The notes beneath the pieces were generated by a model, which saw only the letters and a list, made by a program, of their open reading frames with translations, was not told where the DNA came from and ran no database searches. From assembly GCA_016201135.1 (NCBI GenBank), contig JACQDK010000005.1:1-56466 (forward strand): DNA of 56,466 nt. Reading direction: 5' to 3'. Shown here piece after piece: positions 3,579 to 40,780 of the stretch (within the stretch, counting starts at the first letter, position 1; each line of letters opens with the position of its first letter). Made by a program: the position numbers and the translations under genes. The DNA comes from Actinomycetota bacterium. Its GTDB lineage: Bacteria; Actinomycetota; UBA4738; HRBIN12.

Positions 3579-4973
3579 GTGACGGATCTCGATCGGTTCC
3601 TCGAACAGCCCGGACGGGAAGAAGCCATCGCCGAGGTGAGGAAGCAGATCGACGCCGAGGGCGTCACGTACATGTACTACCAGTTCGTCTCGGTGACCGG
3701 GCGCATCATGGGCAAGGGCATCCCCGCCAAGCACTGGGAGTCCATCGCCCGGCGCGGCTTCCAGCTGGTCTACGGGTCGACGGCGAACCTGTTCGTGGAC
3801 CGGGACGGCAACTACATCGGGTACGGGCCCGAGGCCCGTGAGCTGGTCGGCCTCGCCGACGTGGACACCTTCTGCGTGCTGCCCTGGGACCGCAAGACCG
3901 CCCGCGTCTTCTGCACCCTGTTCCGTGGCCGCGAGGAGGAGGTCGACGGCGGCGCCTTCCTCACATCTGACTGCCGCGGCAACCTGAAGCGGATCCACGA
4001 CGAGTTCACCGCCGAGACCGGGCTGCATCTGCGGGCGGGCTGCGAGCCCGAGATGATGTGGCTCAAGACCAACCCCGACGGCACGCCGTCGGTCGAGGGC
4101 AAGACGAAGCCGTACTGCTACCACATCGACCAGTTCTCCGAGCTTCAGCCGATCATCCACAAGGTGATGGAGTACGGCGAGGCGATGGGGCTGGACATGA
4201 TCCAGGGCGACCACGAGGACGCGCCCGGCCAGCTCGAGCTGAACTTCATGTTCGACAAGGCCGAGCTCACCGCCGACCGGCTCACCACCTACCGCCAGAT
4301 CTGCCGCCAGGTGGGGCGTGAGATGAACGCCTTCGCCTGCTTCATGCCCAAGCCCTTCATGGGGGTCTCGGCGAACGGGTGCCACCACAACATCTCCCTG
4401 TGGCAGGGCGACCAGAACATGTTCCTGCCCGACGGCGACGATCCCCGGGTGCCCGGCAAGGTCGGCCTGCACGCGATCGGCGGCGTGCTGAAGCACCTGC
4501 GGGCCCTCACGTGCATCACCTCGCCCACCGTGAACTCCTACCGGCGGTTCTGGGACGCGGGCTTCTGGGCTCCGATCTTCGCGGACTGGGGCTTCCAGAA
4601 CAGGACGACGGCCCTGCGCATCTCGGCGCCGGGCCGCTACGAGTACCGATCGGTCGACTCCGCGGTGAACCCCTACCTGTCGTTCGCCGCGTTGCTTGTC
4701 GCGATGAAGGACGGCTTGGAGAACAGCATCGACCCCGGCCCGCCCGAGGAGCGGAACATCTACGACGCGATCGCCGCGGGCAAGGACGTCACCCGGATCC
4801 CCGAGACGCTTGGCGAGGCGCTGGACGCCCTCGCCGCCGACGACGTCGTCAGGGCGGCAATGCCCGGCGACATGGAGCGCGTGTTCATGCACTACAAGCG
4901 CGACGAGTGGACGCGGTTCATCGCGACGGTGAGCGACTGGGACATCGGCGAGTACCTGGACATCCTCCCCTAG
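3579..4973 (+). CDS. Glutamine synthetase-like gamma-glutamyl-amine ligase (second, divergent GS paralog)
   Basis: GS catalytic motifs GCEPE, DHEDAPGQLE, MPKP, NGCHHNIS, NRT, EYRSVD. The Glu-flap reads GFWAP instead of GFEAP, as in amine-glutamylating GS-like enzymes. Confidence 0.85.
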   Translation: MTDLDRFLEQPGREEAIAEVRKQIDAEGVTYMYYQFVSVTGRIMGKGIPAKHWESIARRGFQLVYGSTANLFVDRDGNYIGYGPEARELVGLADVDTFCVLPWDRKTARVFCTLFRGREEEVDGGAFLTSDCRGNLKRIHDEFTAETGLHLRAGCEPEMMWLKTNPDGTPSVEGKTKPYCYHIDQFSELQPIIHKVMEYGEAMGLDMIQGDHEDAPGQLELNFMFDKAELTADRLTTYRQICRQVGREMNAFACFMPKPFMGVSANGCHHNISLWQGDQNMFLPDGDDPRVPGKVGLHAIGGVLKHLRALTCITSPTVNSYRRFWDAGFWAPIFADWGFQNRTTALRISAPGRYEYRSVDSAVNPYLSFAALLVAMKDGLENSIDPGPPEERNIYDAIAAGKDVTRIPETLGEALDALAADDVVRAAMPGDMERVFMHYKRDEWTRFIATVSDWDIGEYLDILP

Positions 4974-4995
4974 AGGAAAGGAGCGCACCGCCCCC

Positions 4996-5925
4996 ATGTG
5001 CGGCATCGCAGGCATAATCCACCGGGACGCAGCAGCGGACATCGGCACGGAGATGACCCGCATGCTTCAGTCGATGAAGCATCGCGGGCCGGACTCGTCC
5101 GGCTACGCGCTGTTCGGCCCGCAGAGCGACATGGTCGTCATCAGGTTCAAGCTCGCCGATGCCAACGACCGGCGCGGCTTCGACTTCAAGGAGCGGCTGG
5201 AGCGTCACCGTCAGGAGGTCGAGACCCGCCTGTCCAAGATCGGCGCCTCCATCGACCGGGTGGAGAGAGAGACCGAGTACGCCTACCGCGCCAAGGTCCG
5301 CTACGAGGGCGACCTGAAGGCGCTCGCCGACTACCTCGAGGACGTACCTGGCTGCGAGGTCCTCTCGATGGGGCACTCCCTCGAGATCGTGAAGGACCTG
5401 GGCGACGCGAACGAGGTGTCGGACCTATACCGGCTGGGCGGCTTCGAGGGGACTCACGCGATCGGGCACGTGCGGATGGCGACCGAGTCCGACGTCGACA
5501 TCTCCGGAGCGCACCCGTACTGGGCCTACCCGTTCTCCGACGTGGCCGTGGTCCACAACGGGCAGCTCACGAACTACTTCCACTGGCGTCGCCGGCTGGA
5601 GCGCTCCGGGCACCGGTTCCAGTCCGAGTGCGACTCCGAGATCATCGCCGTGTACCTCGCCGAGAAGATGGCCGATGGGGTAGGGCTCGAGGATGCCATG
5701 CACCAGAGCCTGGAGGAGCTCGACGGAGTGTTCACGTACATGGCCGTCACGAGCGACTCGCTCGGCGTGGCGAAGGACGAGATGGCCGCGAAGCCGCTCG
5801 TGCTCTTCGAGTCCGACGACCTGGTCGCGATGGCCTCCGAGGAGATCGCGATACGCGCGCTGATCGACCACGAGATCGATACGTACGATCCGTACGAGGG
5901 GCAGGTGCTGGCATGGACACGGTAG
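4996..5925 (+). CDS. mgsA: N-methylglutamate synthase subunit A-like (class II glutamine amidotransferase, GlxB), copy 1
   Basis: N-terminal MCGIAG, HRGPDS, IGHVRMATES, VHNGQLTN, CDSEII; first gene of a GATase-GXGXG-FMN triplet. Confidence 0.82.
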   Translation: MCGIAGIIHRDAAADIGTEMTRMLQSMKHRGPDSSGYALFGPQSDMVVIRFKLADANDRRGFDFKERLERHRQEVETRLSKIGASIDRVERETEYAYRAKVRYEGDLKALADYLEDVPGCEVLSMGHSLEIVKDLGDANEVSDLYRLGGFEGTHAIGHVRMATESDVDISGAHPYWAYPFSDVAVVHNGQLTNYFHWRRRLERSGHRFQSECDSEIIAVYLAEKMADGVGLEDAMHQSLEELDGVFTYMAVTSDSLGVAKDEMAAKPLVLFESDDLVAMASEEIAIRALIDHEIDTYDPYEGQVLAWTR

Positions 5926-6701
5926 GCGAGCGCAGGATTACCTACGATGCAAGGGGTCTCGCCGAGCCCAACGCCGAGGTCCCGCACGTCTCCGAGATCG
6001 ACGGCGGCAGGGCGGTGTTCGACGCTGCGGATCTGACGACGCGACAGATCAACCTGGAGCTCCGCTCGCTCATCTACGAGCAGGGCATCCGCGACGTCAC
6101 GGTGCGCAATCCCGGTGCGAAGCATTCGATAGGGGTGGGCATCCTCCAGCGCTGCAAGATCCGCTACGAGGGGAGCCTGGGGTACTTCGGGCTGGGAGTG
6201 ATCGACGGCCCCGAGATCGTGGTGACCGGCCGGGTGGGCTGGTCCGTGTGCGAGAACATGATGTCAGGCGTCGTCGTGATCGAGAAGAACGCCGGCTCGC
6301 TCACCGGGGCCGCGATCCGCGGCGGGGACCTCGTGGTGAAAGGCGGTGTCGGCGCGAGGACCTGGATCGACCAGAAGGGCGGGACGATCATGGTCGGCGG
6401 CAACGCGGGATCGATGACCGGGTTCATGATGCAGCGCGGGCGGCAGATCATCTGCGGAGACGTCGGCGACGGCCTGGGCGACTCGATGTACGACGGCACG
6501 CTCTACGTCGCAGGCAAGGTGAAGTCCCTCGGCATCGACTGCGTCCCGGGGGAGTGGACCGACGCCGACACGGAGCTGATCGAGCGGAAGTTCCGGATGT
6601 ACGGCCTGGACAAGCCGGACTCGTTCCAGAAGTTCGTGTGTGGGAAGCAGCTCTACAACTACGACAACCTTGAGCCGAGCGAGAAGAAGCTCGTCATCTG
6701 A
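5913..6701 (+). CDS. mgsB: N-methylglutamate synthase subunit B-like (GltB C-terminal GXGXG beta-helix, GlxC), copy 1
   Basis: ATG at 5913 inside ORF 4998..6701: NPGAKHSIGVG, GRVGWSVCENMMSG, GFMMQRG, GDSMYDG, QLYNY. Confidence 0.82.
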   Translation: MDTVGERRITYDARGLAEPNAEVPHVSEIDGGRAVFDAADLTTRQINLELRSLIYEQGIRDVTVRNPGAKHSIGVGILQRCKIRYEGSLGYFGLGVIDGPEIVVTGRVGWSVCENMMSGVVVIEKNAGSLTGAAIRGGDLVVKGGVGARTWIDQKGGTIMVGGNAGSMTGFMMQRGRQIICGDVGDGLGDSMYDGTLYVAGKVKSLGIDCVPGEWTDADTELIERKFRMYGLDKPDSFQKFVCGKQLYNYDNLEPSEKKLVI

Positions 6702-6721
6702 GCGAAGGGGCAGGCGAAGCG

Positions 6722-8131
6722 ATGGCAGACGACGTCTCCTCCCGTAGGAACGTTCTTGGCCGCTCGAAGATCTTCACGGAGGACGTCATGAACGACATCC
6801 ACGTGAAGGCCGAGCTCGGCCGCTACAGGATGCGCGGCTTCTCGATGTTCAAGCCGATCCCGCACTGGGACGAGCTGATGTTCCTTCCGGGCACCCTCAC
6901 CCGTTTCGTGATCGAGGGCTACCGGGAGAAGTGTGAGACGAAGACGGTGATCGGCGCGAGGTTCGCCAAGAACCCGCTCGAGCTCGAGATCCCGATCTAC
7001 ATCACGGGGATGAGCTTCGGGGCGCTCTCGCTGGAGGCCAAGATGGCCCTCGCCAAGGGCGCGTCCATGGCGGGGACCGCCACGTGCTCGGGGGAGGGCG
7101 GGATGATCCCGCCCGAGCGCGACCACTCGACGAAGTGGTTCTACCAGGTGATCCAGAGCCGCTACGGGTTCAATCCTCATCACCTGATGCTCGCCGACGG
7201 AGTCGAGTTCTTCATCGGCCAGGGCTGCAAGGTGGGCCTGGGCGGCCACCTGATGGGTCAGAAGGTCACGGAGCAGGTCGCCGAGATGCGGTCCCTGCCG
7301 GCCGGGATCGACCAGCGCTCGCCGGCCCGCCACCCGGACTGGCTGGGTCCCGACGACCTCTCGCTCAAGGTGCAGGAGGTTCGCGAGGCCACCGACTACC
7401 GCGTGCCGATCCAGCTGAAGCTGGGAGCCGCCCGGGTCTACGACGACGTGCGGATGGCTGCGAAGTGCGGCCCGGACTCCATCTACCTGGACGGGGCCGA
7501 GGGCTCGACCGGAGCCGGTCCGCACATCGCCACCGAGGAGACGGGCATCCCGCTCATGGCCGCGATCCCTGAGGCCCGGCGGGCGCTCGAGGACGTGGGC
7601 CTGGCCGACGAGATCGACCTGATCGTCGCTGGGGGCATCCGCAACGGCGCCGACGTCGCCAAGTGCCTGGCCCTCGGCGCGAAGGCGGTCGCGATCGGCC
7701 ACTCCGCCCTGATGGCCCTCAACTGCAACAAGGACATCCCAGGCGTGACCGACTACGAGGGCACGGTAGGAGTCCCCGCCGGCCAGTGCTACCACTGCCA
7801 CACCGGCAGGTGTCCGGTCGGGATCACGACGCAGGACCCCGAGCTCCGCAAGAGGCTGAACGTCGAGGAGGGCGCGCTCCGCGTCTACAACTTCCTCACC
7901 GCGATGACGATGGAGCTCCAGATGCTCGCGCGCGCCTGCGGCAAGACCGACGTGCACTCGCTCGAGCCCGAGGACCTGTGCGCGCTCACGCTGGAGGCCT
8001 CGGCGATGGCGAAGGTACCGCTCGCGGGGACCAGCTACATCCCCGGCGTGACCGAGGAGAGCACCCTCGACCGGATCAAGACGATGATGGAGAAGTACCT
8101 GGCCGACACGGGCCAGTACCCGAACGCCTAG
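6722..8131 (+). CDS. mgsC: N-methylglutamate synthase subunit C-like (FMN-binding glutamate synthase domain, GlxD), copy 1
   Basis: GMSFGALS, SGEGG, GQGCKVGLGG, DQRSPARHPD, DGAEGSTGA, CYHCHTGRCPVGITTQD (FeS motif). Confidence 0.85.
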   Translation: MADDVSSRRNVLGRSKIFTEDVMNDIHVKAELGRYRMRGFSMFKPIPHWDELMFLPGTLTRFVIEGYREKCETKTVIGARFAKNPLELEIPIYITGMSFGALSLEAKMALAKGASMAGTATCSGEGGMIPPERDHSTKWFYQVIQSRYGFNPHHLMLADGVEFFIGQGCKVGLGGHLMGQKVTEQVAEMRSLPAGIDQRSPARHPDWLGPDDLSLKVQEVREATDYRVPIQLKLGAARVYDDVRMAAKCGPDSIYLDGAEGSTGAGPHIATEETGIPLMAAIPEARRALEDVGLADEIDLIVAGGIRNGADVAKCLALGAKAVAIGHSALMALNCNKDIPGVTDYEGTVGVPAGQCYHCHTGRCPVGITTQDPELRKRLNVEEGALRVYNFLTAMTMELQMLARACGKTDVHSLEPEDLCALTLEASAMAKVPLAGTSYIPGVTEESTLDRIKTMMEKYLADTGQYPNA

Positions 8132-8141
8132 GAGAGACTCG

Positions 8142-8576
8142 ATGACCCAATCGCATCTCACCACGAAGATCGGGATCGACGCCGAGGAGCTGGCCGGCCA
8201 CCGGTTCCCGTACCAGGAGGACCCGTCGCTCCTGGACGACATCGACCTCATGGCGCTCACGCCGGGCGAGGACCTCAACTGGCTCGAGGACATCCACCTG
8301 CTCGGCGAGGACGACATGCCGGCGGTGTTCGACCGGTACTCGAACTCGTTCCTCAAGATCTACTTCCCGATCCCGCAGGGACGTGAGGACGAGATCGCGA
8401 GGAAGGTGCTGATGAAGCACCTGACGAGCGGCAACTCGTACGGGATCCAGCTCAAGGGTCGGCACGCCAAGTTCGCACAGCCGGCGCTGGGACCGTGGGT
8501 GGAAGGCTCCGAGACGGTCGGTGCCGACTACCATCCCTCGGCCCTCGAGGGCTGGGAAAGGCCGGCCGGGCACTGA
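8142..8576 (+). CDS. Hypothetical protein (144 aa) inside mgs operon 1
   Basis: AGGAG RBS, GC3-biased codons, 10 bp after mgsC; no recognisable family. Confidence 0.8.
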   Translation: MTQSHLTTKIGIDAEELAGHRFPYQEDPSLLDDIDLMALTPGEDLNWLEDIHLLGEDDMPAVFDRYSNSFLKIYFPIPQGREDEIARKVLMKHLTSGNSYGIQLKGRHAKFAQPALGPWVEGSETVGADYHPSALEGWERPAGH

Positions 8577-8586
8577 GGACCTCCGG

Positions 8587-9378
8587 GTGACCCCGCGCCG
8601 ACCGCTCGTCGCGATCTCCGAAGGCTTCGCGGACTACGGCGACTACTACGGGTTCGGCTACGGCCGGCCGCTCCTGGCGGTCGGCGCCCTGCCGGTCCTG
8701 CTGCCGTACTACGAGAGCGAGGCAGACCGCGCCGAGCTGATCGAGCGCGTCGACGGGCTGGTGCTCGCCGGGGGCCGCGACATCGAGACGTGGAGGTACG
8801 GGCGCGAGGATCCGCACCCGGCCCAGGGCGAATCGCAGCCGCACCTGGACGAGATCGACCTCTCATACGCTCGGCTGGCGGTCGAGGCTGGCGTGCCGGT
8901 CCTGGGCGTGTGCCGTGGCTGCCAGGTCCTGAACGTGGCGTTCGGCGGCACTCTCTACGGCGACATGGCCGAGTACCCGGATGCCGGAGCGGATCATCCC
9001 GGCGCGAAGTGGAAGGAGTGGCGCGAGCTCGTCCGGGCGACGCTGGATGGCACGCCGCGCCCGCCGCACCCGGCGCACCCGATCGAGATCGCGCCCGATT
9101 CCATGCTCGCGTCGCACCTGGGGGAGCGGGCGATCGTCGACAGCTACCACCATCAGGCGATCCGCGAGCTCGGACGAGGTCTCCGCGCGGTCGCGTGGGC
9201 TCCCCACGGGGTGATCGAGGCGATCGAGATGCCCGGGGCCTCCGCGTTCTTCCTGGGGGTCCAGTGGGAGATCCACGAGGAGTGGCAGGAAGACGAGCGC
9301 ACGCTCGCGGTGTGGCGGACGCTCGCCGAGGCCGCAGAGCGGCGCTCGTCGGCCCGCGAGGCCGCGGTGGTCCCGTGA
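8587..9378 (+). CDS. Gamma-glutamyl-gamma-aminobutyrate hydrolase family (PuuD / peptidase C26, class I GATase)
   Basis: DGLVLAGGRD, PVLGVCRGCQVLNVAFGGTL (Cys nucleophile), SYHHQAI, LGVQWEIHE (variant of QWHPE). GTG start at 8587. Confidence 0.85.
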   Translation: MTPRRPLVAISEGFADYGDYYGFGYGRPLLAVGALPVLLPYYESEADRAELIERVDGLVLAGGRDIETWRYGREDPHPAQGESQPHLDEIDLSYARLAVEAGVPVLGVCRGCQVLNVAFGGTLYGDMAEYPDAGADHPGAKWKEWRELVRATLDGTPRPPHPAHPIEIAPDSMLASHLGERAIVDSYHHQAIRELGRGLRAVAWAPHGVIEAIEMPGASAFFLGVQWEIHEEWQEDERTLAVWRTLAEAAERRSSAREAAVVP

Positions 9379-9740
9379 CCGCCTCGATCGAGGTCACGAT
9401 CGACGCGGTCGACGCGGAGCCCGCCGCCGAGTTCTGGCGTGAGGCCCTCGGCTACCGGCTCCTCTACGAGCGGCCGCCCTACATCGTGCTCGGTCCGCCC
9501 GCCGGCGACCCGCGCCCGCGCGTGCTGATCCAGCGGGTGGACGAGGTCGCACCCGGCAAGACGCCGGTGCACATGGACCTGCGGGTCGAGGACCCCGACG
9601 CCGAGGTCGAGCGCCTGCTCGCCCTCGGAGCCCGGATCGAATGGGTGATCGACGAGACCGAGGCAGGCTTCATCCGATGGACGACGATGAGCGACCCCCA
9701 GGGCACCTTGTTCTGCGTGTGCCCCGCACGGAAGGAGTGA
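9375..9740 (+). CDS. VOC/glyoxalase-like family protein
   Basis: GTGA overlap with the previous gene; VTIDAVDAEPAAEFWREALGY...VHMDL...EVERLLALGA...MSDPQGTLFCV. Confidence 0.85.
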   Translation: MTASIEVTIDAVDAEPAAEFWREALGYRLLYERPPYIVLGPPAGDPRPRVLIQRVDEVAPGKTPVHMDLRVEDPDAEVERLLALGARIEWVIDETEAGFIRWTTMSDPQGTLFCVCPARKE

Positions 9741-9748
9741 TCTCCCCT

Positions 9749-11083
9749 ATGGCGTTGCCCCGGCACGCGAAGTACGTGGTGATCGGCGCGGGCGTGCACG
9801 GCCTCTCGACGGCCTGGCACCTCGCGAAGGAGCTCGAGGCGCGCGGCGCCGGGTCGGGCGCCGACGTGATCGTGCTCGACAAGACCGGGGTCGGCGCCGG
9901 CCCCTCGGGGATCGCCTGCGGGGTGATCAGGAACAACTACTTCCAGCCGGCCATGCGCGAGCTGATGGCCTACTCGGTGGGCGTATGGGAGTCCGACCCC
10001 GAGGCGTTCCACTACCACCCGGTCGGCTACATGCAGCTGGGGCCGGAGGTCATGCACGCCGACGTGGTGCAGATCTACGAGCAGCAGAGGGCGATCGGGT
10101 ACGCATCCGAGCTGGTGGAGGGCGAGGCAGACTGCCACGCCTACATGGAGGGCATCTTCTCCGACTGGCAGGCCGGGGGCGTGACGGTCGTGCTCCACGA
10201 GAAACGGGGAGGCTACGCAGAGAACCTTCCCTCGATGATCGGGCTGCGCGGCAAGAGCGAGGCACTGGGGGTGGAGCTGCACGCGCCGGTGACGGTCGCG
10301 GGGTTCCGCATGGAGGGAGGCGCGATCGCCGCGGTGCAGACCGACCGCGGCGACATCGAGTGCGACCAGGTGATCGTGGCCGCCGGACCGTGGGTGCGCG
10401 ACTTCTGGCGCCTGCTGGACCTTCCGGCCACCATCACCGTTCGAGGCCGAGACGGAAAGGACCACGAGCGTCCGATGTGGACCTACTGGTGCCTCCAGGA
10501 GGGGACGCTCGGCGTGGATCCCACCTACCTGACGGACAACGAGGGCAACCCGCCGCCGGTGATCCACATCGACACCGACGCGCCGCTCCTCGACGGCATG
10601 GACGGGTCCCTGGTGACCGACGAGCTCTGGGGCATCTACTACAAGCCCGATTTCAACTTCGGTGGCGTGCAGGGCGGCGCGATGCCATGGGTGGTAAAGG
10701 AGCCGGCCGACGACGTGAAGGTCGATCCTTACGGCGCCAAGTCGAAGGAGTACGTCGTGACGGAGGAGTTCGAGCGCATGTGGACCTCGGCGCTCGCCCA
10801 CTGCCACAAGCGGTTCGAGGGCAAGCGACCCCTTTACCACAAGGCCCCCACCGGGGGCATCGGAGCGTTCACGCCGGACAGCTTCCCCGTGTTCGACCGG
10901 TTCCGCGAGAACGCCTACGTCGTAGCCGATTCGAACCACGGCTACAAGATGATCGGCGTGGGCGCCCTCGTGGCGAAGGAGCTGCTCGGCGAGCAGCAGG
11001 CGCTGCTCGAGCCCTTCCGGTTCTCGCGGTACGCGCAGGGGAAGCTGCATCCCGTGAGTCACTCGCCGTTCCCCTGGAGCTGA
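9749..11083 (+). CDS. FAD-dependent amine oxidoreductase (DAO / sarcosine oxidase beta / dimethylglycine dehydrogenase N-domain-like)
   Basis: YVVIGAGVHGLSTAWHLA Rossmann motif, GAGPSGIACG, VAAGPW, TPDSFPV, NHGYKMIG; AAGGAG RBS. Confidence 0.85.
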   Translation: MALPRHAKYVVIGAGVHGLSTAWHLAKELEARGAGSGADVIVLDKTGVGAGPSGIACGVIRNNYFQPAMRELMAYSVGVWESDPEAFHYHPVGYMQLGPEVMHADVVQIYEQQRAIGYASELVEGEADCHAYMEGIFSDWQAGGVTVVLHEKRGGYAENLPSMIGLRGKSEALGVELHAPVTVAGFRMEGGAIAAVQTDRGDIECDQVIVAAGPWVRDFWRLLDLPATITVRGRDGKDHERPMWTYWCLQEGTLGVDPTYLTDNEGNPPPVIHIDTDAPLLDGMDGSLVTDELWGIYYKPDFNFGGVQGGAMPWVVKEPADDVKVDPYGAKSKEYVVTEEFERMWTSALAHCHKRFEGKRPLYHKAPTGGIGAFTPDSFPVFDRFRENAYVVADSNHGYKMIGVGALVAKELLGEQQALLEPFRFSRYAQGKLHPVSHSPFPWS

Positions 11084-11085
11084 CG

Positions 11086-11712
11086 GTGCCCGAGGCCCCG
11101 GAGGAGTTCGCGCTCCGGGTGGCGGGCGGGGTCGCCGCAGGAGCGCCCGAGATCGCGGAGTCCCCGTTCGAGGAGGTTCCCGAGGAGGCGCCGCTCGAGA
11201 TCGAAGGCGAGCAGGGGGAGGACCCCGCGCTCGCCTTCCGCCGGACGCTCGGCATGTTCGCCACCGGCGTCACGATCATCACGACCCGCGTGGCCGACCG
11301 CGTGCACGGGATGACCGCGAACGCCTTCATGTCGGTGTCGCTGCGGCCTCCGCTCGTCCTGATCTCGGTTGACAAGCGGGCGAGGATGAACTCGCTCCTT
11401 CGCGATGGGGTCCGGTTCGGGGTCAGCGTGCTCGCGGACGACCAGCGAGAGCTGTCCGATCGCTTCGCCGGCCGGGCGGTGCAGGACGCGGCGGAGGCGC
11501 GCTTCACCGAGGTGCACGACACGCCGCTGGTGGAGGGAGCGCTCGCCGGCCTCGTGGCCAGGGTTGAGCGGTCGTACTGGGGCGGTGACCACTCGCTGTT
11601 CCTGGGGCGGGTCGAGTACGCGCGCTGGGGCGGGGGCCGGCCGCTCCTTTTCCACGGGGGCAAGTACGAGCGCCTGCCGGGGGAAGATCCGAACCCGGGG
11701 GCCGAAGACTAG
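11086..11712 (+). CDS. Flavin reductase (HpaC/RutF-like) family protein
   Basis: FRRTLGMFATGVTIIT, GMTANAFMSVSLRPPLVLISV, GGDHSLFLG, PLLFHGGKY. Start is approximate. Confidence 0.88.
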   Translation: MPEAPEEFALRVAGGVAAGAPEIAESPFEEVPEEAPLEIEGEQGEDPALAFRRTLGMFATGVTIITTRVADRVHGMTANAFMSVSLRPPLVLISVDKRARMNSLLRDGVRFGVSVLADDQRELSDRFAGRAVQDAAEARFTEVHDTPLVEGALAGLVARVERSYWGGDHSLFLGRVEYARWGGGRPLLFHGGKYERLPGEDPNPGAED

Positions 11713-13784: not shown

Positions 13785-13820
13785 GCCCGCCCCCCCCTCG
13801 AACCCCCGTGCCGGTCTCTC

Positions 13821-14930
13821 TCAGCTCTCCTTCGCCCGCTTGCGCTCGGGCTCGTAGACCGGATGGCGGACGATCTCTCCGGTCACCAGCTCGTCACCGA
13901 CACGAGCCTGGATCCGCGCTCCCGGCTGGTTCTGGTCCTTGTGGACCTTGGCCAGGCCGACCGTCTTGCCGCCCCGGAAGGGCGAGACGAGCGCCTGGGT
14001 CACGTATCCGATCTCCCGCCCTTCGAGCAGGATCGGGGCGCCGGTCGCCTCGTCCGCGCCCGACTCGAGCTCGACGCTCGTGAGCCGGAGCGTGGTGGAC
14101 TCCCGATCGCGAAGGAGGGCCTCCCTGCCCTGGAAGTCACCCTTGCCGAGTGCCACCGACCAACCGAGCCCGCACTCGTAGGGGGAGACCGTCTGGTCGT
14201 ACTCGACCCCGCCGATGATGAAGCCGCCTTCGATGCGGAAGATGTCCAGGGCCGTCATGCCTATGACCCTCAAGCCCCGCGGCGCTCCGGCCTCGAGGAG
14301 GGCGTCCCACAGGTCGAGGGCGAGATCGGGCTCGACCCACAGCTCGTACCCGAGCTCGGCGGTGTAGCCGAGGCGCGTCATGAAGATCGGGATGCCGCCG
14401 ATCCGCACGTCCTCGCGGAACCCGTAGTAGCGCAGGGCCGCGCCCGAAAGGTCGGCCTGCGTCAGCGACTGGAGGATCTCGCGGCTCCTGGGTCCCTGGA
14501 CGCAAAGGTGTGGGAGCTCGTCCGTGCGCTCCCGAACGCTGATCCCGGTGCCCTCGGCCTTGGCCGCGAAGATCTCGGCGTCGCGGTCGTTGGCGCCGCA
14601 GAACCGGACCCTCGCCGGGTCGCGGTTCATGACCGTGCAGTCGTCGACCATCCGGCCTTCGGCGTCGGCCAGGGCGCCGTACGCTATCCGGCCCTGCGGA
14701 AGCTTCGAGACGTCGCGGGTGACGATCGAGTTGACCAGATCGAGCGCCCCGGGACCCTCGATGTCGACCTTGCGCAGCATCGAGAAATCCATGATCCCGG
14801 CGGTCTCGCGCACCGCTCGGTACTCGTCGGCGACGTCCGTCACCACGGCGGGCGCCGAGTAGCCGAAGAGGTCCGTCCAGTCGTCCGTGAGGGCGGCGAG
14901 GCGGGGGTAGAAGGCGGTTTCCTTGCTCAC
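13821..14930 (-). CDS. Aminomethyltransferase (GcvT/T-protein family, THF-binding)
   Basis: EYRAVRETAGIMDFSML, VQGPRSREIL, TRLGYTAELGYEL, RIEGG, KGDFQGREAL. Confidence 0.9.
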   Translation of the reverse strand: MSKETAFYPRLAALTDDWTDLFGYSAPAVVTDVADEYRAVRETAGIMDFSMLRKVDIEGPGALDLVNSIVTRDVSKLPQGRIAYGALADAEGRMVDDCTVMNRDPARVRFCGANDRDAEIFAAKAEGTGISVRERTDELPHLCVQGPRSREILQSLTQADLSGAALRYYGFREDVRIGGIPIFMTRLGYTAELGYELWVEPDLALDLWDALLEAGAPRGLRVIGMTALDIFRIEGGFIIGGVEYDQTVSPYECGLGWSVALGKGDFQGREALLRDRESTTLRLTSVELESGADEATGAPILLEGREIGYVTQALVSPFRGGKTVGLAKVHKDQNQPGARIQARVGDELVTGEIVRHPVYEPERKRAKES

Positions 14931-14946
14931 GTCTGTCCCTCCCTTC

Positions 14947-15891
14947 TCATGCGAAGAGCTCGGCCAACGCTTCTGCGACCTCGAAGAGGTCGACCACGGC
15001 GCCGTATCGAGCCACGCCGAAGATAGCCGCTTCCGGGTCCGTGTTCACGGCGATGATGGTCCCGTCTCCCTTGATGCCCGCCAGATGCTGAACGGCGCCC
15101 GAGATCCCGAGGGCGAGGTAGACCTTCGGCCTCACGGTCTTGCCCGACTGCCCCACCTGGCGCGCGTTCGTCATCCAACCGGCGTCCACGAGCGGACGTG
15201 AGACGGAGAGCGTGGCTCCCATCTTCCCGGCCAGCGCCTCGAACCGGGGGATCTCTTCCCTGGTCCCGATCCCGCGACCTATCGACAGCAGGAAGTCGGC
15301 GGCCGTGATGTCGACGTCGCCCGCGGGGGGATCGACGAGCTTCAGGTGGCGGGCCCGCGGCGCCGTCACCTGAACCGAGAGGTCCGTGATCGTGGGGTCG
15401 CCGCGGCCCTCCGCGGGGGCCCAGGCGCCCGGCCGGAGCATGAGCAGGACCCGTTCCTTTCCCGGGAAGTCGACCTCGGCGTGGACCTTGGCCCCGTAGA
15501 AGGCGCGGCGGGCGAGGAGCCCGTCTTCCTCGCGCGACAACCGGAAGACGTCGCTCGCGAACCCGAGCCCGAGCTTCGCGGCCACCGCGGGTCCGTAGCC
15601 CATCCCGTTCACGGTGAAGCCGAGCAGGACGAAGCCGGGCCCGCGGTCCTCGATCAGCGCTTCTATGACCTGCTGGTAGACGTCGTTCTCGAACTCCTCG
15701 GCCTCCGCCTGCACCGTGACGATCTCGTCGACCCCCTCGACCGAGAGGGCGTCCGTGAACAGCGACGGGTCCCGAGCGATCACGGCGACCGATACCGGGC
15801 CGCCGATCTCCGCCGCGGCGGCGACGAGCTCGAAGGTGACGTCCCGGAGCTCTCCTCGGAGGTGCTCGGCGACCACGAGCGTGCCGTTCAC
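14947..15891 (-). CDS. etfA: Electron transfer flavoprotein alpha subunit
   Basis: SIGRGIG, SRPLVDAGW, QVGQSGKTVRPKVYLALGISGAVQHLAG, AVNTDPEAAIF; GTG at 15891 overlaps the etfB stop. Confidence 0.93.
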   Translation of the reverse strand: MNGTLVVAEHLRGELRDVTFELVAAAAEIGGPVSVAVIARDPSLFTDALSVEGVDEIVTVQAEAEEFENDVYQQVIEALIEDRGPGFVLLGFTVNGMGYGPAVAAKLGLGFASDVFRLSREEDGLLARRAFYGAKVHAEVDFPGKERVLLMLRPGAWAPAEGRGDPTITDLSVQVTAPRARHLKLVDPPAGDVDITAADFLLSIGRGIGTREEIPRFEALAGKMGATLSVSRPLVDAGWMTNARQVGQSGKTVRPKVYLALGISGAVQHLAGIKGDGTIIAVNTDPEAAIFGVARYGAVVDLFEVAEALAELFA

Positions 15892-16652: not shown

Positions 16653-16697
16653 GGGCGGCGTCCCCGCCTGGCGGTCCCGTGGATCCGGGTCAACGCC

Positions 16698-18806
16698 TCA
16701 GGCACGGAGCAGCTCGATCACCTTGCGGTCGCGGAGGAATGGCTTCGGGACCGCCGGGTCCGGCGAATCGATCTCGCGGGCCAGCCGGTGACCGTCGAAG
16801 ACGCAGTCGGCGACCATCCGCGGGGCCAGGCAGTCACCGATCCGGTAGAGGCCGATGATGCCCTCGCTCCGCAGGGCGTCCGTCCCGAGGTCCTTGAGCT
16901 CGCGATAGAGCGCCTCGTTCGACCGCCGCTGGGTGATGAGCACCACGGCGTCGGCGTCCCATTCGGTCAGGTGCTCCGGATCGAAGACGTGGTAGGAGAC
17001 GGCCCTGCCCGGCTCGATGGACTGGAGCATCGCATGGGTGACGATGTTCACGTGGAGCGAGTGCAGCTTGCGTAGCATGTTCGGAAGCTCCAGCGTGAAC
17101 TTCATGTAGGGAGCGACCTCCCCGAGATGCGTCAGGAGCGTCACCTGCTTGCCCTCGGTGGCCAGCTTCTCGGCGAGCGAGACGCCCATGAAGTAGCCAT
17201 CGTTGTCGAGGATCACGACCCTCTCGCCGGGGATCTCCTTGCCTCCGACCATGATCTGCTCGGGCGTGAGCACGTGCGGCAGGCTCGCATCGGCTCCGGG
17301 GATCGGCTCGCTGGTCGCGCCGTTGAGCCCGTTGGTGGCCCAGTAGGCGCCGGTGGCGATGACGACGATCTCGGCCCCGTACTTGAGCACCGCGTTCGCG
17401 TCCGCCCTGGTGCTGGGGATGAGCTCCACGTTCTTGAGCTTGTCGATCTGGATCTTGCGGTAGTTGACGACCCGCGCCCACTCGCCGAGTCCGGGCAGCA
17501 GCGGGATCCAGCGCATGATCCCGCCCATCTCCTTCTCGGCTTCCAGCAGGTGAACGCGGCGCATCCCACGCTTGCCGAGGATCATCGCGCACTCCATCCC
17601 CGCGGGACCTGCGCCCACGACGAGCACGTCGTTGTCGGCGTTCTCGGCCTTCGTGAACTTCTCCGGGTGCCAGCCGCGGCGGTACTCCTCCATGAAGGTC
17701 GCGTTCTGCGTGCAGACGGCGGGCGGGCCGCCGATCTCCCAGCGCGAGACGCAGATGTTGCACCCGATGCACTCGCGGATGTCGTCGTACCGGCCCTCCG
17801 AGATCTTGGTGGGCAGGAACGGGTCCGAGATGGAGGGCCGGCAGGCGCCGATGATGTCGAGCTTGCCGGAGCGGATCGCCTCGGCCATCACGTCGGCGCT
17901 CGTGAACCGCCCGACGCCCACGACCGGCTTCTTCGTGACCTGCTTAACGCGTCCCTGCCAGGGCAGCTGGCGGCCCGACTCGTAGAAGCGGGAGGGGGTC
18001 GCGTCCTCGCCCCACTCGGAGATGCCAGAGACGTTCACGTCCCACAGGTCGACGAGGTTGTCGACGAGCTCGACGAAGGGCAACGCGTCGCGCTCGAGCT
18101 GGGTCCCGATCTCGCCCATGAACATGTCGGTCGAGATGCGCACTGCGATGGCGCAGTCGTCTCCGACGGCCTCCCGCACCTGCTCGATGGTCTCGCGCCA
18201 GAACCGGGCCCGATTCTCGAACGAGCCGCCGTACTCGTCGGTGCGCTTGTTGTAGAAGGGCGTCAGGAACTGCTGTGGCAGGTATGAGTGGGAGCCGTAC
18301 ACGTAGACGATGTCGAAGCCGGCGGACCGGGCCCGCCTGGCGGCCGCGACGTAGAAGCCCTGCACCTCACGGATGTCGTCCTTGTCCATCTCCTTCGGGT
18401 AGGTGAGGTGCTCGAAGTCGCTCGGCAGCTGCGAGGGAGCGCGGGGGACGCATCGCGACTCCATGCAGGGAGCGTGCGCGCCTCCGTACCACAGCTCCAC
18501 GCCTGCGAGAGCGCCGTGCTCGTGGAGCTTGTCGCACATGAGCGAGAGGTTGCGGACGTCGTCCTCGTCCCACAGCCGTGCCGAGATGCGCATCGTGTCG
18601 TCGCTCTCCGGGTGGATCGAGCAGTACTCGGTGCAGGAGGCGCCCCAACCGCCCTCGGCCCTCATCGCGCGGTTCCAGGCCTGGGCGTTCGGCTTCTCCG
18701 ACCCTGCTCCGTTGCAGTGGGGGACCTGGTAGAAGCGATTCCTGAGGGTCTTCGGACCGATCCGGATAGGCTCGAAGAGGACGTCGTGCTTCGGATCTCG
18801 TGCCAT
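16698..18806 (-). CDS. tmd: Trimethylamine dehydrogenase
   Basis: Closely matches recalled Methylophilus TMADH: MARDPKHD.LFEPI.IGPKTLRNRFYQVPHC (Cys30 for 6-S-cysteinyl FMN), TEYC (Tyr60), VYG.HSY (Tyr169/His172), EWGED and SRWEIG (Trp264/Trp355), CIGCNIC 4Fe-4S. Adjacent to etfBA. Confidence 0.9.
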   Translation of the reverse strand: MARDPKHDVLFEPIRIGPKTLRNRFYQVPHCNGAGSEKPNAQAWNRAMRAEGGWGASCTEYCSIHPESDDTMRISARLWDEDDVRNLSLMCDKLHEHGALAGVELWYGGAHAPCMESRCVPRAPSQLPSDFEHLTYPKEMDKDDIREVQGFYVAAARRARSAGFDIVYVYGSHSYLPQQFLTPFYNKRTDEYGGSFENRARFWRETIEQVREAVGDDCAIAVRISTDMFMGEIGTQLERDALPFVELVDNLVDLWDVNVSGISEWGEDATPSRFYESGRQLPWQGRVKQVTKKPVVGVGRFTSADVMAEAIRSGKLDIIGACRPSISDPFLPTKISEGRYDDIRECIGCNICVSRWEIGGPPAVCTQNATFMEEYRRGWHPEKFTKAENADNDVLVVGAGPAGMECAMILGKRGMRRVHLLEAEKEMGGIMRWIPLLPGLGEWARVVNYRKIQIDKLKNVELIPSTRADANAVLKYGAEIVVIATGAYWATNGLNGATSEPIPGADASLPHVLTPEQIMVGGKEIPGERVVILDNDGYFMGVSLAEKLATEGKQVTLLTHLGEVAPYMKFTLELPNMLRKLHSLHVNIVTHAMLQSIEPGRAVSYHVFDPEHLTEWDADAVVLITQRRSNEALYRELKDLGTDALRSEGIIGLYRIGDCLAPRMVADCVFDGHRLAREIDSPDPAVPKPFLRDRKVIELLRA

Positions 18807-18868
18807 GAGTCACCTCCGGCAGCTTCTCCTGCCCGCTGGCCCGCCCCTTCGCTCCGGGGATGTGGGCG

Positions 18869-19808: not shown

Positions 19809-19816
19809 CGCCCTAC

Positions 19817-22153: not shown

Positions 22154-22156
22154 CGG

Positions 22157-40685: not shown

Positions 40686-40780
40686 AGCGCGGGCCGGAAG
40701 GCTTGACCATGGCATAACCCGGCGTTGGGGGGTCCATGGCCCCCTCCCTCCTACGGTGGCGGCACAGGAGGAAAGGGGAG

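What the first reader, a model, noticed from the sequence alone, without database searches (positions are those of the whole stretch)
3579..11712. A second, divergent glutamylation module: candidate new route for dimethylamine (or another amine)
Seen: an operon of a GS-like ligase (GFWAP flap, so not an ammonia GS, and clearly different from the GmaS at 1-666), a divergent mgsABC, a 144-aa unknown, a PuuD-like gamma-glutamyl hydrolase, a VOC protein, a standalone FAD amine oxidoreductase and a flavin reductase. A conventional GmaS and mgsABC-mgdABCD already exist elsewhere in the window. Established: TMADH and Tdm both yield DMA, and known DMA removal needs DmmABCD or DMA dehydrogenase; neither is in this window. 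Inference: this module may glutamylate DMA (gamma-glutamyl-dimethylamide to N,N-dimethylglutamate) and demethylate it to NMG with the FAD enzyme, or handle another small amine. This is the best candidate for an undescribed pathway.
Basis: partly seen in the sequence, partly recalled or inferred. Interest (0 to 1): 0.85.

Follow-up and report, generated by a model that had tools for sequence, protein, structure and literature searches.

The report
Second glutamate-linked amine module beside Tdm
This operon is a real, widely conserved second copy of the glutamate-based methylamine machinery that travels with the enzymes that make dimethylamine and is found where the known dimethylamine monooxygenase is missing, so it is a strong candidate for the long-sought alternative way bacteria consume dimethylamine.

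Summary
They form a tight operon (gaps of 22 bases or less).

The conserved core is GS2–MgsA2B2C2–u144. The DAO-fold FAD enzyme is a frequent but separable partner. C26, VOC and the flavin reductase are accessories of this lineage.

Distribution in Actinomycetota (401 sampled genomes):
- All 10 Tdm-positive genomes carry the type-2 MgsC and the FAD enzyme.
- None of the 10 carries the Dmm marker PF11927.

Distribution in Alphaproteobacteria (110 sampled genomes):
- 8 of 10 Tdm-positive genomes carry type-2 MgsC. Seven of these have no PF11927 match and one has a weak one.
- The other 2 have Dmm and no type-2 MgsC.
- 3 of the 5 type-2 genomes without Tdm carry a TMADH homologue.
- A 1.4-Mb, 36% GC genome has the same module beside tmm and tdm.

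Papers state that the SAR11 route for dimethylamine (DMA) is unknown.

Best reading (about 0.45): a Dmm-independent, glutamate-mediated DMA route. No biochemistry exists.

Two caveats: an uncharacterised TMADH-family paralogue lies elsewhere in this genome, and one genome carries both systems. High interest.

The parts
3579..4973 (+). GS2: a GmaS-like gamma-glutamyl-amine ligase of a distinct clade
   Evidence: Gln-synt_C 1.6e-85. It scores below the cut-offs of the GlnT/GmaS, GlnA and PuuA models. Trp replaces the flap Glu, and an Asp-bearing loop is kept where GmaS 9QUR has a deletion. Its clade of 14 rows has support 100 and is separate from the canonical GmaS rows.
4996..5925 (+). MgsA2: class-II glutamine-amidotransferase subunit with an N-terminal Cys
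   Evidence: GATase_6 and GATase_7. It is 46% identical to the window's MgsA1 and 81-91% to orthologues in relatives.
5913..6701 (+). MgsB2: GXGXG subunit
   Evidence: PF01493 2e-11. It is 43% identical to MgsB1.
6722..8131 (+). MgsC2: FMN/glutamate-synthase-domain subunit, type 2
   Evidence: Glu_synthase 3.3e-92. It is 85-93% identical across Actinomycetota and 71-78% in Alphaproteobacteria, against 41-58% for canonical MgsC. The motifs QGCKVGLGGHL and EGSTGAGPH replace QGAKPGxGG and GGTxA.
8142..8576 (+). u144: conserved 144-aa protein that always follows MgsC2; fold unknown
   Evidence: No Pfam or NCBIfam match. Orthologues lie in 15 loci, one of them alphaproteobacterial at 37% identity, and further copies at 34-38% lie in four more alphaproteobacterial clusters. 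The model has pLDDT 69 and no PDB fold match.
8587..9378 (+). C26 (PuuD-like) class-I amidotransferase-fold hydrolase; a lineage-specific accessory
   Evidence: Peptidase_C26 8e-50. It scores below the PuuD cut-off. In other lineages a different class-I GATase (cluster c11) takes its place or there is none.
9375..9740 (+). VOC / glyoxalase-like protein; a lineage-specific accessory
   Evidence: Glyoxalase_6 2.6e-26. Orthologues at 62% identity or more lie in 11 of the 80 loci (L030, L032-L039, L041), all from the window's own clade of the FAD tree.
9749..11083 (+). FAD amine oxidoreductase with a sarcosine-oxidase/proline-dehydrogenase fold and no folate-binding domain
   Evidence: DAO 7.5e-31. 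The model has pLDDT 87, and its best folds are 1y56_B, SoxB and MSOX at TM 0.70-0.74. At least 587 relatives lie in the genome collection, 65-81% identical across phyla.
11086..11712 (+). HpaC/StyB-like flavin reductase; it may serve the ACAD-like oxygenase at 22163-23563
   Evidence: Flavin_Reduct 7.5e-35. HpaC and StyB are its best NCBIfam matches.
19817..22156 (-). Tdm (TMAO demethylase): the DMA source that travels with the module
   Evidence: DUF1989 + GCV_T + GCV_T_C. It lies next to the module in G023 and G020 and in 21 of 80 loci.
16698..18809 (-). TMADH: a second DMA source
   Evidence: E 4.4e-268 to solved TMADH, with C30, Y60, S74 and W105 kept.
13821..14930 (-). GcvT-type aminomethyltransferase (folate-dependent formaldehyde acceptor)
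   Evidence: GCV_T 5.2e-61. In L046, L053 and L100 a GcvT gene directly follows the FAD gene.

Best explanation
The operon is the local form of a conserved second glutamate-mediated amine system. Its core is GS2, MgsA2B2C2 and u144. The FAD enzyme is its usual partner.

I think the system takes up the dimethylamine (DMA) released by Tdm and TMADH in bacteria that lack DMA monooxygenase.

Inferred steps:
1. GS2 uses ATP to ligate DMA to the gamma-carboxyl of glutamate.
2. The amidotransferase subunit MgsA2 splits that amide and passes DMA to the FMN subunit MgsC2. There DMA is joined to 2-oxoglutarate and reduced to N,N-dimethylglutamate.
3. The FAD enzyme removes one methyl group as formaldehyde, which a GcvT protein takes up on folate. 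The product is N-methylglutamate.
4. The Mgd/Sox-type dehydrogenase finishes the conversion.

Shown here: the domains, the operon, the separate clades and the co-distribution. Inferred: every substrate and product.
For: 1. The gene set is conserved in order in four related genera.

2. The core is conserved across phyla. GS2 forms one clade of 14 rows with support 100. MgsC2 identity is bimodal: 71-93% for type 2 against 41-58% for canonical MgsC.

3. Actinomycetota sample of 401 genomes:
- Tdm in 10.
- Type-2 MgsC in 12, which include all 10 with Tdm.
- The FAD enzyme in 22, which include all 12 with type-2 MgsC.
- PF11927 in 16, none of which has Tdm.

4. All 5 further Tmm-Tdm-FAD genomes have type-2 MgsC.

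5. Alphaproteobacteria sample of 110 genomes:
- Tdm in 10.
- 8 of these have type-2 MgsC and no strong PF11927 match.
- The 2 without type-2 MgsC are the 2 with strong PF11927.
- Type-2 MgsC occurs in only 5 of the 100 genomes without Tdm.
- 3 of those 5 hold a TMADH homologue at 61-63% identity, one of them 8 kb from MgsC2.

6. Position: in L114 the module sits beside Amt, a PuuR-like regulator and mgsABC1. In L115 the PF11927 gene (C39:25740-26540) lies in that place.

7. Eight genomes without a canonical MgsC all keep a SoxA/MgdA-like gene, in 6 of them on the module's contig.

8. The FAD enzyme has the fold of N-methyl amino acid oxidases. In other genomes it lies between BHMT-like and SoxBDAG genes, where a dimethylglycine-to-sarcosine step is expected. 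GcvT follows it in 3 loci.

9. A canonical GmaS already turns over DMA, with Km 16 mM (PMC7948447, passages).

10. Papers say that SAR11 lacks dmmDABC although strain HTCC1062 grows on TMAO, and that the function of SAR11_1304, next to glnT and gltB2, is uncertain. A 1.4-Mb, 36% GC genome has FAD-GS2-Mgs2-u144 beside mgsABC, mgd, tmm and tdm.
Against: - There is no biochemical, genetic or expression evidence for any step.
- N,N-dimethylglutamate and gamma-glutamyl-dimethylamide gave no relevant paper in the library.
- One genome, G430, has Tdm, PF11927, type-2 MgsC and the FAD enzyme together.
- G461 has a weak PF11927 match (5.6e-14).
- The FAD enzyme was not found in G495, G515 or G525, which have Tdm and type-2 MgsC. 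It occurs in 10 actinobacterial genomes without type-2 MgsC. So the FAD step is not fixed to the core.
- In HTCC1062 the FAD homologue rose under nitrogen limitation while the neighbouring glnT and gltB2 fell (PMC3870248, passages).
- A TMADH-family paralogue of unknown specificity is present in G000, G020 and G023.
- The SAR11-like cluster holds other unassigned candidates: a Rieske oxygenase, a GcvT protein and a second DAO enzyme.
- Related genomes are not independent, MAGs are incomplete (G000 is 89.8% complete), and PF11927 marks only one Dmm subunit.
Confidence: 0.45

Rival explanations
1. The FAD enzyme is itself the DMA dehydrogenase or oxidase (DMA to MMA plus formaldehyde). GS2/Mgs2 is only a second, divergent GmaS/NMG-synthase set that handles the MMA so produced.
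For: - All 10 Tdm-positive Actinomycetota have the FAD enzyme, in 8 of them on the Tdm contig.
- Four of those 10 genomes, and 4 of 5 further Tmm-Tdm-FAD genomes, have type-2 Mgs as their only Mgs. So it could serve MMA there.
- The FAD enzyme has the fold of a secondary or tertiary amine oxidase.
- GcvT follows the FAD gene in 3 loci.
Against: - The FAD enzyme was not found in 3 of 8 alphaproteobacterial genomes with Tdm and type-2 Mgs.
- It occurs in 10 Actinomycetota that have neither Tdm nor type-2 Mgs, in betaine-type clusters with no DMA source.
- Type-2 Mgs, not the FAD enzyme, is what mirrors Dmm.
- Many carriers, among them a 1.4-Mb genome, keep both Mgs sets side by side. That argues against simple redundancy.
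Confidence: 0.2
2. The module handles a different small amine (ethylamine, ethanolamine, an amino alcohol, a polyamine or similar). It merely shares regulation and neighbourhood with methylated-amine genes. This would be a Puu-like or Ipu-like gamma-glutamylation route.
For: - A GS-like ligase, a DAO-family oxidase and a C26 hydrolase recall PuuA, PuuB and PuuD.
- PuuR-like regulators lie near some copies.
- GS-like ligases are known to be promiscuous (PMC7948447).
Against: - The operon has no aldehyde dehydrogenase.
- C26 is missing from most lineages.
- The association with Tdm or TMADH holds for 10 of 12 type-2 genomes in one phylum sample and 11 of 13 in the other. The mirror image with Dmm is not expected for an unrelated amine.
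Confidence: 0.15
3. It is a redundant or differently tuned MMA pathway, for example of high affinity or regulated by nitrogen supply, with no new substrate. Dmm-less bacteria simply excrete DMA.
For: - Lidbury et al. 2017 describe DMA accumulation as a 'bottleneck' (PMC5520151, passages).
- GS2 shares the GmaS flap Trp.
- All Mgs domains are retained.
Against: - HTCC1062 grows on TMAO as nitrogen source without dmm (PMC8918994, passages).
- Genomes with Dmm lack the type-2 set (2 of 2). A mere MMA isozyme should not avoid Dmm.
- MgsC2 has altered substrate-site motifs that are conserved across phyla.
- It has its own extra subunit, u144.
Confidence: 0.12

Closest known systems
N-methylglutamate pathway (GmaS, MgsABC, MgdABCD) for monomethylamine
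   Same: It has the same enzyme families in the same order: a GS-type ligase with Trp in place of the flap Glu, followed by a split glutamate-synthase-like trio. The window also holds the canonical set.
   Different: - GS2 is 29-33% identical to canonical GmaS and forms a separate clade.
- It keeps an Asp-bearing loop that GmaS 9QUR lacks.
- MgsC2 is only 41-58% identical to canonical MgsC and has changed site motifs.
- It has an extra 144-aa protein.
- It is usually linked to a monomeric DAO-fold enzyme.
- It is distributed with Tdm or TMADH and apart from Dmm.
Dimethylamine monooxygenase DmmDABC (haem-dependent oxidative N-demethylase; Pfam PF11927 marks its alpha subunit. That PF11927 corresponds to a Dmm subunit is recalled, not taken from a call.)
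   Same: It takes the same place in the pathway logic (after Tdm, before the NMG enzymes) and, in L114 against L115, the same place in the gene cluster.
   Different: There is no homology. PF11927 was not found in G000 or in any of the 10 Tdm-positive Actinomycetota. The proposed chemistry is ATP-dependent glutamylation rather than oxygenation.
Genes SAR11_1304 ('monomeric sarcosine oxidase'), 1305 (glnT) and 1308 (gltB2) of 'Ca. Pelagibacter ubique' HTCC1062, as listed in PMC3870248 and PMC3160333
   Same: The order of annotations in the papers' tables matches the FAD-GS2-MgsA2B2C2-u144 operon that I found in a 1.4-Mb, 36% GC alphaproteobacterial genome.
   Different: The match rests on gene names and order in the papers' text. 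I held no sequence of that strain. The papers leave the function open and do not link these genes to DMA.
Putrescine Puu pathway (PuuA, PuuB, PuuC, PuuD)
   Same: A GS-like ligase, a DAO-family FAD enzyme and a C26 gamma-glutamyl hydrolase lie in one operon.
   Different: There is no aldehyde dehydrogenase. The scores are far below the PuuA and PuuD cut-offs (237.8 against 650; 73.2 against 266). A glutamate-synthase-like trio is present.
Dimethylglycine oxidase/dehydrogenase and sarcosine oxidases
   Same: The FAD enzyme has the same fold (TM 0.64-0.74). In other genomes it lies in betaine-type clusters.
   Different: It has 444 residues and no GcvT-type folate domain. Its soxB model score is 66.4 against a cut-off of 529. 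Sequence searches of the PDB match only its N-terminal half.

Membership tests
GmaS (gamma-glutamylmethylamide synthetase, GlnT / type III GS) | Glutamine-synthetase catalytic domain | tested here: met
   Gln-synt_C 1.6e-85 over residues 131-459.
GmaS (gamma-glutamylmethylamide synthetase, GlnT / type III GS) | Flap glutamate replaced by Trp (Trp300 in RhGmaS; PMC7948447, passages) | tested here: met
   GFWAP aligns with GYEAP of GS 8OOL and with ATWAP of GmaS 9QUR.
GmaS (gamma-glutamylmethylamide synthetase, GlnT / type III GS) | Loss of the Asp50' ammonium-binding residue (Ala48' in RhGmaS) | tested here: inconclusive
   GS2 has FVDRDG aligned with YFDGSS of GS 8OOL, while GmaS 9QUR has a gap there. 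This is a pairwise HMMER alignment only.
GmaS (gamma-glutamylmethylamide synthetase, GlnT / type III GS) | Reaches the curated family score and groups with canonical GmaS | tested here: not met
   TIGR03105 scores 315.5 against a cut-off of 469.6. In the tree the GS2 clade (support 100) excludes the 7 canonical GmaS rows (FastTree, 25 rows).
GmaS (gamma-glutamylmethylamide synthetase, GlnT / type III GS) | Preference for monomethylamine | not testable with these tools
   This needs an enzyme assay.
N-methylglutamate synthase MgsABC | Three genes: a class-II amidotransferase with N-terminal Cys, GXGXG, and an FMN glutamate-synthase domain | tested here: met
   MgsA2 starts MCGI.
N-methylglutamate synthase MgsABC | Orthology with the canonical set that stands beside gmaS and mgd | tested here: not met
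   It is a paralogue. Identity to the window's own canonical MgsC is 55%, while type-2 copies share 71-93% across two phyla.
Dimethylamine monooxygenase (Dmm / HODM) | PF11927 alpha subunit | tested here: not met
   No match in G000, which is 89.8% complete. The same search finds 16 of 401 genomes elsewhere in the phylum, so the search does work.
Puu pathway | PuuA-, PuuB-, PuuC- and PuuD-type genes together, reaching the family scores | tested here: not met
   No aldehyde dehydrogenase lies in the operon. NF045547 scores 237.8 against 650 and NF008471 scores 73.2 against 266.
Sarcosine oxidase / dimethylglycine oxidase superfamily (for the FAD enzyme) | Two-domain DAO fold with an N-terminal FAD-binding GxGxxG | tested here: met
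   DAO 7.5e-31. Foldseek E 2.8e-24 and TM 0.74 to 1y56_B, and similar values to SoxB and MSOX.
Sarcosine oxidase / dimethylglycine oxidase superfamily (for the FAD enzyme) | Membership of a named subfamily (SoxB, MSOX, or DMGO with a folate domain) | tested here: not met
   soxB scores 66.4 against 529, and soxA_mon 33 against 480. No GCV_T domain is present.
TMADH (for the neighbouring gene 16698-18809) | Cys30 for 6-S-cysteinyl FMN. Tyr60, Ser74 and Trp105 as the residues that set TMA against DMA preference (this role is recalled; no paper was found). | tested here: met
   All four residues are kept in the alignment to 1DJN.

The most novel reading that the evidence does not exclude
GS2, MgsA2B2C2 and u144, usually with the DAO-fold enzyme, form a previously unrecognised ATP-dependent, glutamate-mediated pathway for dimethylamine. 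The route runs from gamma-glutamyl-dimethylamide to N,N-dimethylglutamate to N-methylglutamate.

It would be the missing DMA step in Dmm-less bacteria, among them SAR11-like Alphaproteobacteria and Actinomycetota. That would mean the supposed oceanic 'DMA bottleneck' is not a gap in metabolism but an unannotated pathway.
Probability: 0.4. Interest if true: 0.9.

Novelty: new variant of a known kind. Interest (0 to 1): 0.8.

Why it matters
Methylated amines are climate-active nitrogen compounds.

Lidbury et al. 2017 found dmmDABC absent from all SAR11 genomes and much rarer in ocean metagenomes than tmm, tdm and gmaS. They inferred a bottleneck at DMA (PMC5520151). Later work showed that a SAR11 strain grows on TMAO as nitrogen source and supposed an unknown isoenzyme (PMC8918994). 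For Gram-positive methylotrophs no DMA gene could be named either (PMC5023230).

A conserved gene set that accompanies Tdm or TMADH where Dmm is missing makes this open question directly testable. The tools would be a few enzyme assays and knockouts in cultured carriers.

If confirmed, it would:
- add two new metabolites and a new marker gene for DMA turnover in soil, groundwater and sea;
- change the annotation of many genes now called 'glutamine synthetase', 'glutamate synthase' and 'sarcosine oxidase'.

Tried and rejected
**Complex of MgsC2 with u144 (complex prediction).** The machine was busy. The job was accepted and collected. The result is no verdict, so it counts neither for nor against binding.

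**u144.** It has no Pfam or NCBIfam match. The protein atlas gave no usable hit. Foldseek against the PDB gave nothing at E 0.001 or better. Its fold and role stay unknown.

**Sequencing runs.** No RNA holder is listed. I did not lay reads, so I can say nothing on expression.

**Cysteine motif of MgsC (CxxCxxxxC).** I looked at it as a possible difference between type 1 and type 2. Both window copies have it, so it does not separate them.

**Classifying the C46/G023 TMADH-family paralogue.**
- Source names are only the generic 'dimethylamine/trimethylamine dehydrogenase'.
- A paper search for the residues that set specificity found nothing.
- Its residues fit neither TMADH nor what I recall of DMADH.
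- It remains unresolved.

**The FAD tree (79 rows, because one of the 80 loci gave no FAD ORF of 400 residues or more; FastTree).** I asked whether Tdm-type and betaine-type contexts fall into separate clades. They interleave, so I rejected the idea of two subfamilies with separate functions.

**The flavin reductase as partner of the FAD enzyme.** I now think this less likely than a partnership with the ACAD-like oxygenase.

**Supplements.** Supplementary tables of PMC5520151 (genome lists) were closed. They may list which marine genomes lack dmm.

**Unpublished genomes.**
- G153 is one of the 22 FAD-positive genomes.
- G205 is one of the genomes with canonical MgsC.
- G425 is one of the 5 Tmm-Tdm-FAD genomes with type-2 MgsC and one of the 8 with a MgdA-like gene.
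- G022, G029 and G037 are among the 36 of 40 relatives without a GS2 orthologue.
- No conclusion rests on any of them alone.

Full report
**Observation**

The window is contig C108 of a 2.24-Mb, 132-contig MAG that is 89.8% complete, with about 70% G+C.

Between 3579 and 11712 nine + strand genes stand head to tail, with gaps of 22 bases or less or small overlaps:
- a GS-like ligase (GS2)
- a class-II amidotransferase that begins MCGI (MgsA2)
- a GXGXG protein (MgsB2)
- an FMN glutamate-synthase-domain protein (MgsC2)
- a 144-residue protein with no family match (u144)
- a C26 peptidase
- a glyoxalase-like VOC protein
- a DAO-family FAD enzyme
- an HpaC/StyB-like flavin reductase

The rest of the window is a methylated-amine island. 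It holds:
- the N-terminus of GmaS
- a PucR-type regulator and a USP
- an EtfD-like iron-sulfur protein, GcvT and ETF alpha/beta
- a TMADH that keeps Cys30, Tyr60, Ser74 and Trp105
- a PhyH dioxygenase, Tdm and an ACAD-like protein
- a permease
- canonical mgsABC and mgd genes, and formate dehydrogenase genes

**What GS2 and Mgs2 are**

GS2's best solved relative is a glutamate-methylamine ligase (9QUR, 3e-66). At the flap, GS2 reads GFWAP where a true GS reads GYEAP and 9QUR reads ATWAP. The structure paper on GmaS names this Glu-to-Trp change as the mark of GmaS (PMC7948447, passages). So GS2 is a gamma-glutamyl-amine ligase and not an ammonia GS.

GS2 is not a GmaS orthologue, for four reasons:
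- It is 29-33% identical to canonical GmaS.
- It falls below the TIGR03105 cut-off.
- It keeps an Asp-bearing loop where 9QUR has a deletion.
- In a 25-row tree the 14 GS2-type rows, from Actinomycetota and Alphaproteobacteria, form one clade with support 100, apart from the 7 canonical GmaS rows (FastTree, so a first look).

MgsC2 is 55% identical to the window's own MgsC1. Its orthologues are 85-93% identical across actinobacterial families and 71-78% identical in Alphaproteobacteria. Canonical MgsC copies score 41-58%. The distribution is clearly bimodal. Type-2 copies share changed motifs around the glutamate-synthase substrate site.

u144 follows MgsC2 in every complete copy that I read.

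**What belongs to the module**

The same gene order is found in four related genera: G023, G020, G016 (cut by a contig end) and G003.

I took the FAD enzyme as a probe. It has at least 587 relatives in the species-genome collection, 65-81% identical to the window's copy among the best 80. I examined those 80 loci:
- At least 16 hold GS2 and MgsC2 together.
- 21 hold Tdm.
- Others place the FAD gene among a BHMT-like methyltransferase, an OpuA-type transporter, SoxBDAG-like genes, formate-THF ligase and an IclR regulator. That is a glycine-betaine-type setting.

In the FAD tree these contexts interleave, so the enzyme probably does one kind of reaction in all of them.

C26 and VOC occur only in the window's wider lineage. 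Elsewhere a different class-I amidotransferase stands there, or none.

The core is therefore GS2, MgsA2B2C2 and u144. The FAD enzyme is a frequent, separately regulated partner, with an IclR gene beside it in 27 loci and in the 36% GC genome.

**The test of the DMA idea**

The Dmm marker PF11927 was not found in G000. The same search works elsewhere: it finds 16 of 401 genomes in the phylum.

In an evenly drawn sample of 401 Actinomycetota (G000 included):

| Feature | Genomes |
|---|---|
| Tdm, near full length | 10 |
| Type-2 MgsC | 12, including all 10 with Tdm |
| FAD enzyme | 22, including all 12 with type-2 MgsC |
| PF11927 | 16, none with Tdm or the FAD enzyme |

- In 8 of the 10 Tdm genomes, Tdm and the FAD gene share a contig.
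- Four of the 10 (G149, G023, G126, G155) have no canonical MgsC at E 1e-90 or better.
- Five further genomes with Tmm-Tdm-FAD clusters, one of them a cultured Streptomyces, all have type-2 MgsC at 86-88%. Only one of the five also has a canonical-type copy, and that copy is read through a stop codon.

For a test outside the phylum I drew 110 Alphaproteobacteria around a centre genome.
- Ten have Tdm.
- Eight of these have type-2 MgsC. Of the eight, seven have no PF11927 match and one (G461) has a weak one (5.6e-14).
- The remaining two have strong PF11927 matches and only canonical MgsC.
- Type-2 MgsC occurs in 13 of the 110: 8 of the 10 with Tdm and 5 of the 100 without.
- Of those 5, three carry a full-length TMADH homologue (61-63% identity). 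In G534 it lies 8 kb from MgsC2.

So in both phyla the type-2 set goes with an enzyme that makes DMA, and in the samples it takes turns with Dmm.

Position agrees with this. In L114 the module stands beside Amt, a PuuR-like regulator and canonical mgsABC. In L115 the PF11927 gene stands in that place.

Results against:
- G430, which was chosen because it has the FAD enzyme, has Tdm, PF11927, type-2 MgsC and FAD together.
- The FAD enzyme was not found in G495, G515 or G525.
- Related genomes are not independent, and many of the genomes are MAGs.

**Link to the literature**

- Lidbury et al. 2017 report that dmmDABC is absent from all SAR11 genomes while tmm, tdm and gmaS are ubiquitous there (PMC5520151, passages).
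- Gao et al. 2022 show growth of HTCC1062 on TMAO as nitrogen source and suppose 'an isoenzyme of DmmDABC' (PMC8918994, passages).
- Smith et al. 2013 list SAR11_1304 ('monomeric sarcosine oxidase', strongly raised under nitrogen limitation, function uncertain), 1305 (glnT), 1308 (gltB2), 1310 (amt), 1313-1315 (glxBCD) and 1316 (glnT). They note that the DMA route is in question (PMC3870248, passages; also PMC3160333).
- McTaggart et al. 2015 could name no DMA gene in Gram-positive methylotrophs (PMC5023230, passages).

A 1.41-Mb, 36% GC genome in my sample has FAD-GS2-MgsA2-MgsB2-MgsC2-u144 next to an Amt gene, canonical mgsABC, mgd, tmm and tdm. This fits the order of names in those papers. 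I did not compare sequences with that strain.

Four searches found no paper that assigns these genes to DMA or names the proposed intermediates:
- dimethylamine oxidase/dehydrogenase terms
- dimethylglutamate/dimethylglutamine terms
- SAR11 locus tags
- DMA catabolism terms from 2019 on

**Mechanism**

The FAD enzyme's model (pLDDT 87) has the fold of L-proline dehydrogenase beta, SoxB, MSOX and the flavin domain of dimethylglycine enzymes. It is therefore an oxidiser of secondary or tertiary amine C-N bonds.

In betaine-type clusters it sits where dimethylglycine must become sarcosine, ahead of a SoxBDAG-type enzyme. In the module it sits ahead of an Mgd/Sox-type enzyme. That enzyme is kept in all 8 genomes examined that lack canonical Mgs.

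The simplest common reading is 'N,N-dimethyl amino acid to N-methyl amino acid'.

A canonical GmaS already turns over DMA poorly, with Km 16 mM against 27 µM for MMA. A paralogue tuned to DMA is therefore plausible.

A variant that I cannot exclude: MgsC2's FMN oxidises DMA itself and uses the electrons to make NMG.

All substrates are inferred.

The main rival makes the FAD enzyme the DMA dehydrogenase and GS2/Mgs2 a plain MMA set. It explains genomes that have only type-2 Mgs. It does not explain carriers without the FAD enzyme, FAD genes in betaine clusters, or why it is Mgs2 that avoids Dmm.

**Caveat for this genome**

A TMADH-family paralogue lies on C46. It is 58% identical and read in four frame pieces, so it is either a pseudogene or an assembly error. 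Intact or partial copies exist in G023 and G020 but not in G149, G126 or G155. The G023 copy keeps Cys30, Tyr60 and Trp264 but has Ala74, His105 and Val355. Its substrate is unknown, and it could be a DMA dehydrogenase.

**Verdict**

The module is a new variant of the glutamate-mediated amine pathway with a well-supported link to DMA and no biochemical proof. Interest 0.8.

Noticed in passing
window 22163-23563 (-) and 11086-11712 (+): An acyl-CoA-dehydrogenase-fold protein lies beside Tdm. Its NCBIfam matches include the SfnB, HsaA and DszC oxygenase components. Among the 80 FAD loci this protein occurs in 13 and the FMO-type Tmm in 6, never both. The own genome gave no Tmm match at E 1e-15 or better. 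Together with the operon's flavin reductase it may be a two-component replacement for trimethylamine monooxygenase.
   Followed up: partly
window 18951-19823 (-): A PhyH-type Fe/2-oxoglutarate dioxygenase lies between TMADH and Tdm. Homologues lie beside Tdm in 10 loci and beside Tmm in an alphaproteobacterial cluster (L113). Its function is unknown.
   Followed up: partly
G000 contig C46, 341-2409 (-): A TMADH-family paralogue, 58% identical to the window's TMADH, is read in four different frame pieces. An intact relative in G023 differs from TMADH at three substrate-bowl positions. Its specificity is unknown.
   Followed up: partly
window 11709-18809 (-): A block of EtfD-like membrane iron-sulfur protein, GcvT, ETF alpha, ETF beta and TMADH lies between the module and PhyH-Tdm in this genome. 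It is absent from that place in G023 and G020. It looks like an inserted TMA dehydrogenase unit with its own electron path.
   Followed up: no
L024 (G003:C79) 11131-12516: In G003 the ligase of the module is only 52% identical to GS2, while the other module proteins are 72-91% identical. It branches at the base of the GS2 clade. Either the ligase was exchanged or it evolves fast.
   Followed up: no
loci L042, L043, L048, L050, L072, L077, L079, L086, L093, L099 and others: The same FAD enzyme (67-74% identical) lies with a BHMT-like methyltransferase, an OpuA-type transporter, SoxBDAG-like genes, a carbon-nitrogen hydrolase and an IclR regulator, in Actinomycetota and Chloroflexota without Tdm nearby. 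It is a candidate folate-domain-less dimethylglycine demethylase.
   Followed up: partly
L111 (G461:C1) 7608-9969: In the 36% GC alphaproteobacterial cluster a Rieske-type oxygenase and a GcvT-like protein lie between tmm and tdm, and a second DAO enzyme lies beside the FAD gene. These are other unassigned candidates for amine demethylation.
   Followed up: no
window 40718-41356 (+): A 212-residue frame is made almost wholly of RTX calcium-binding nonapeptide repeats (10 stretches, E 1.7e-72), within an actinobacterial-type genome next to a MobA-like gene.
   Followed up: no
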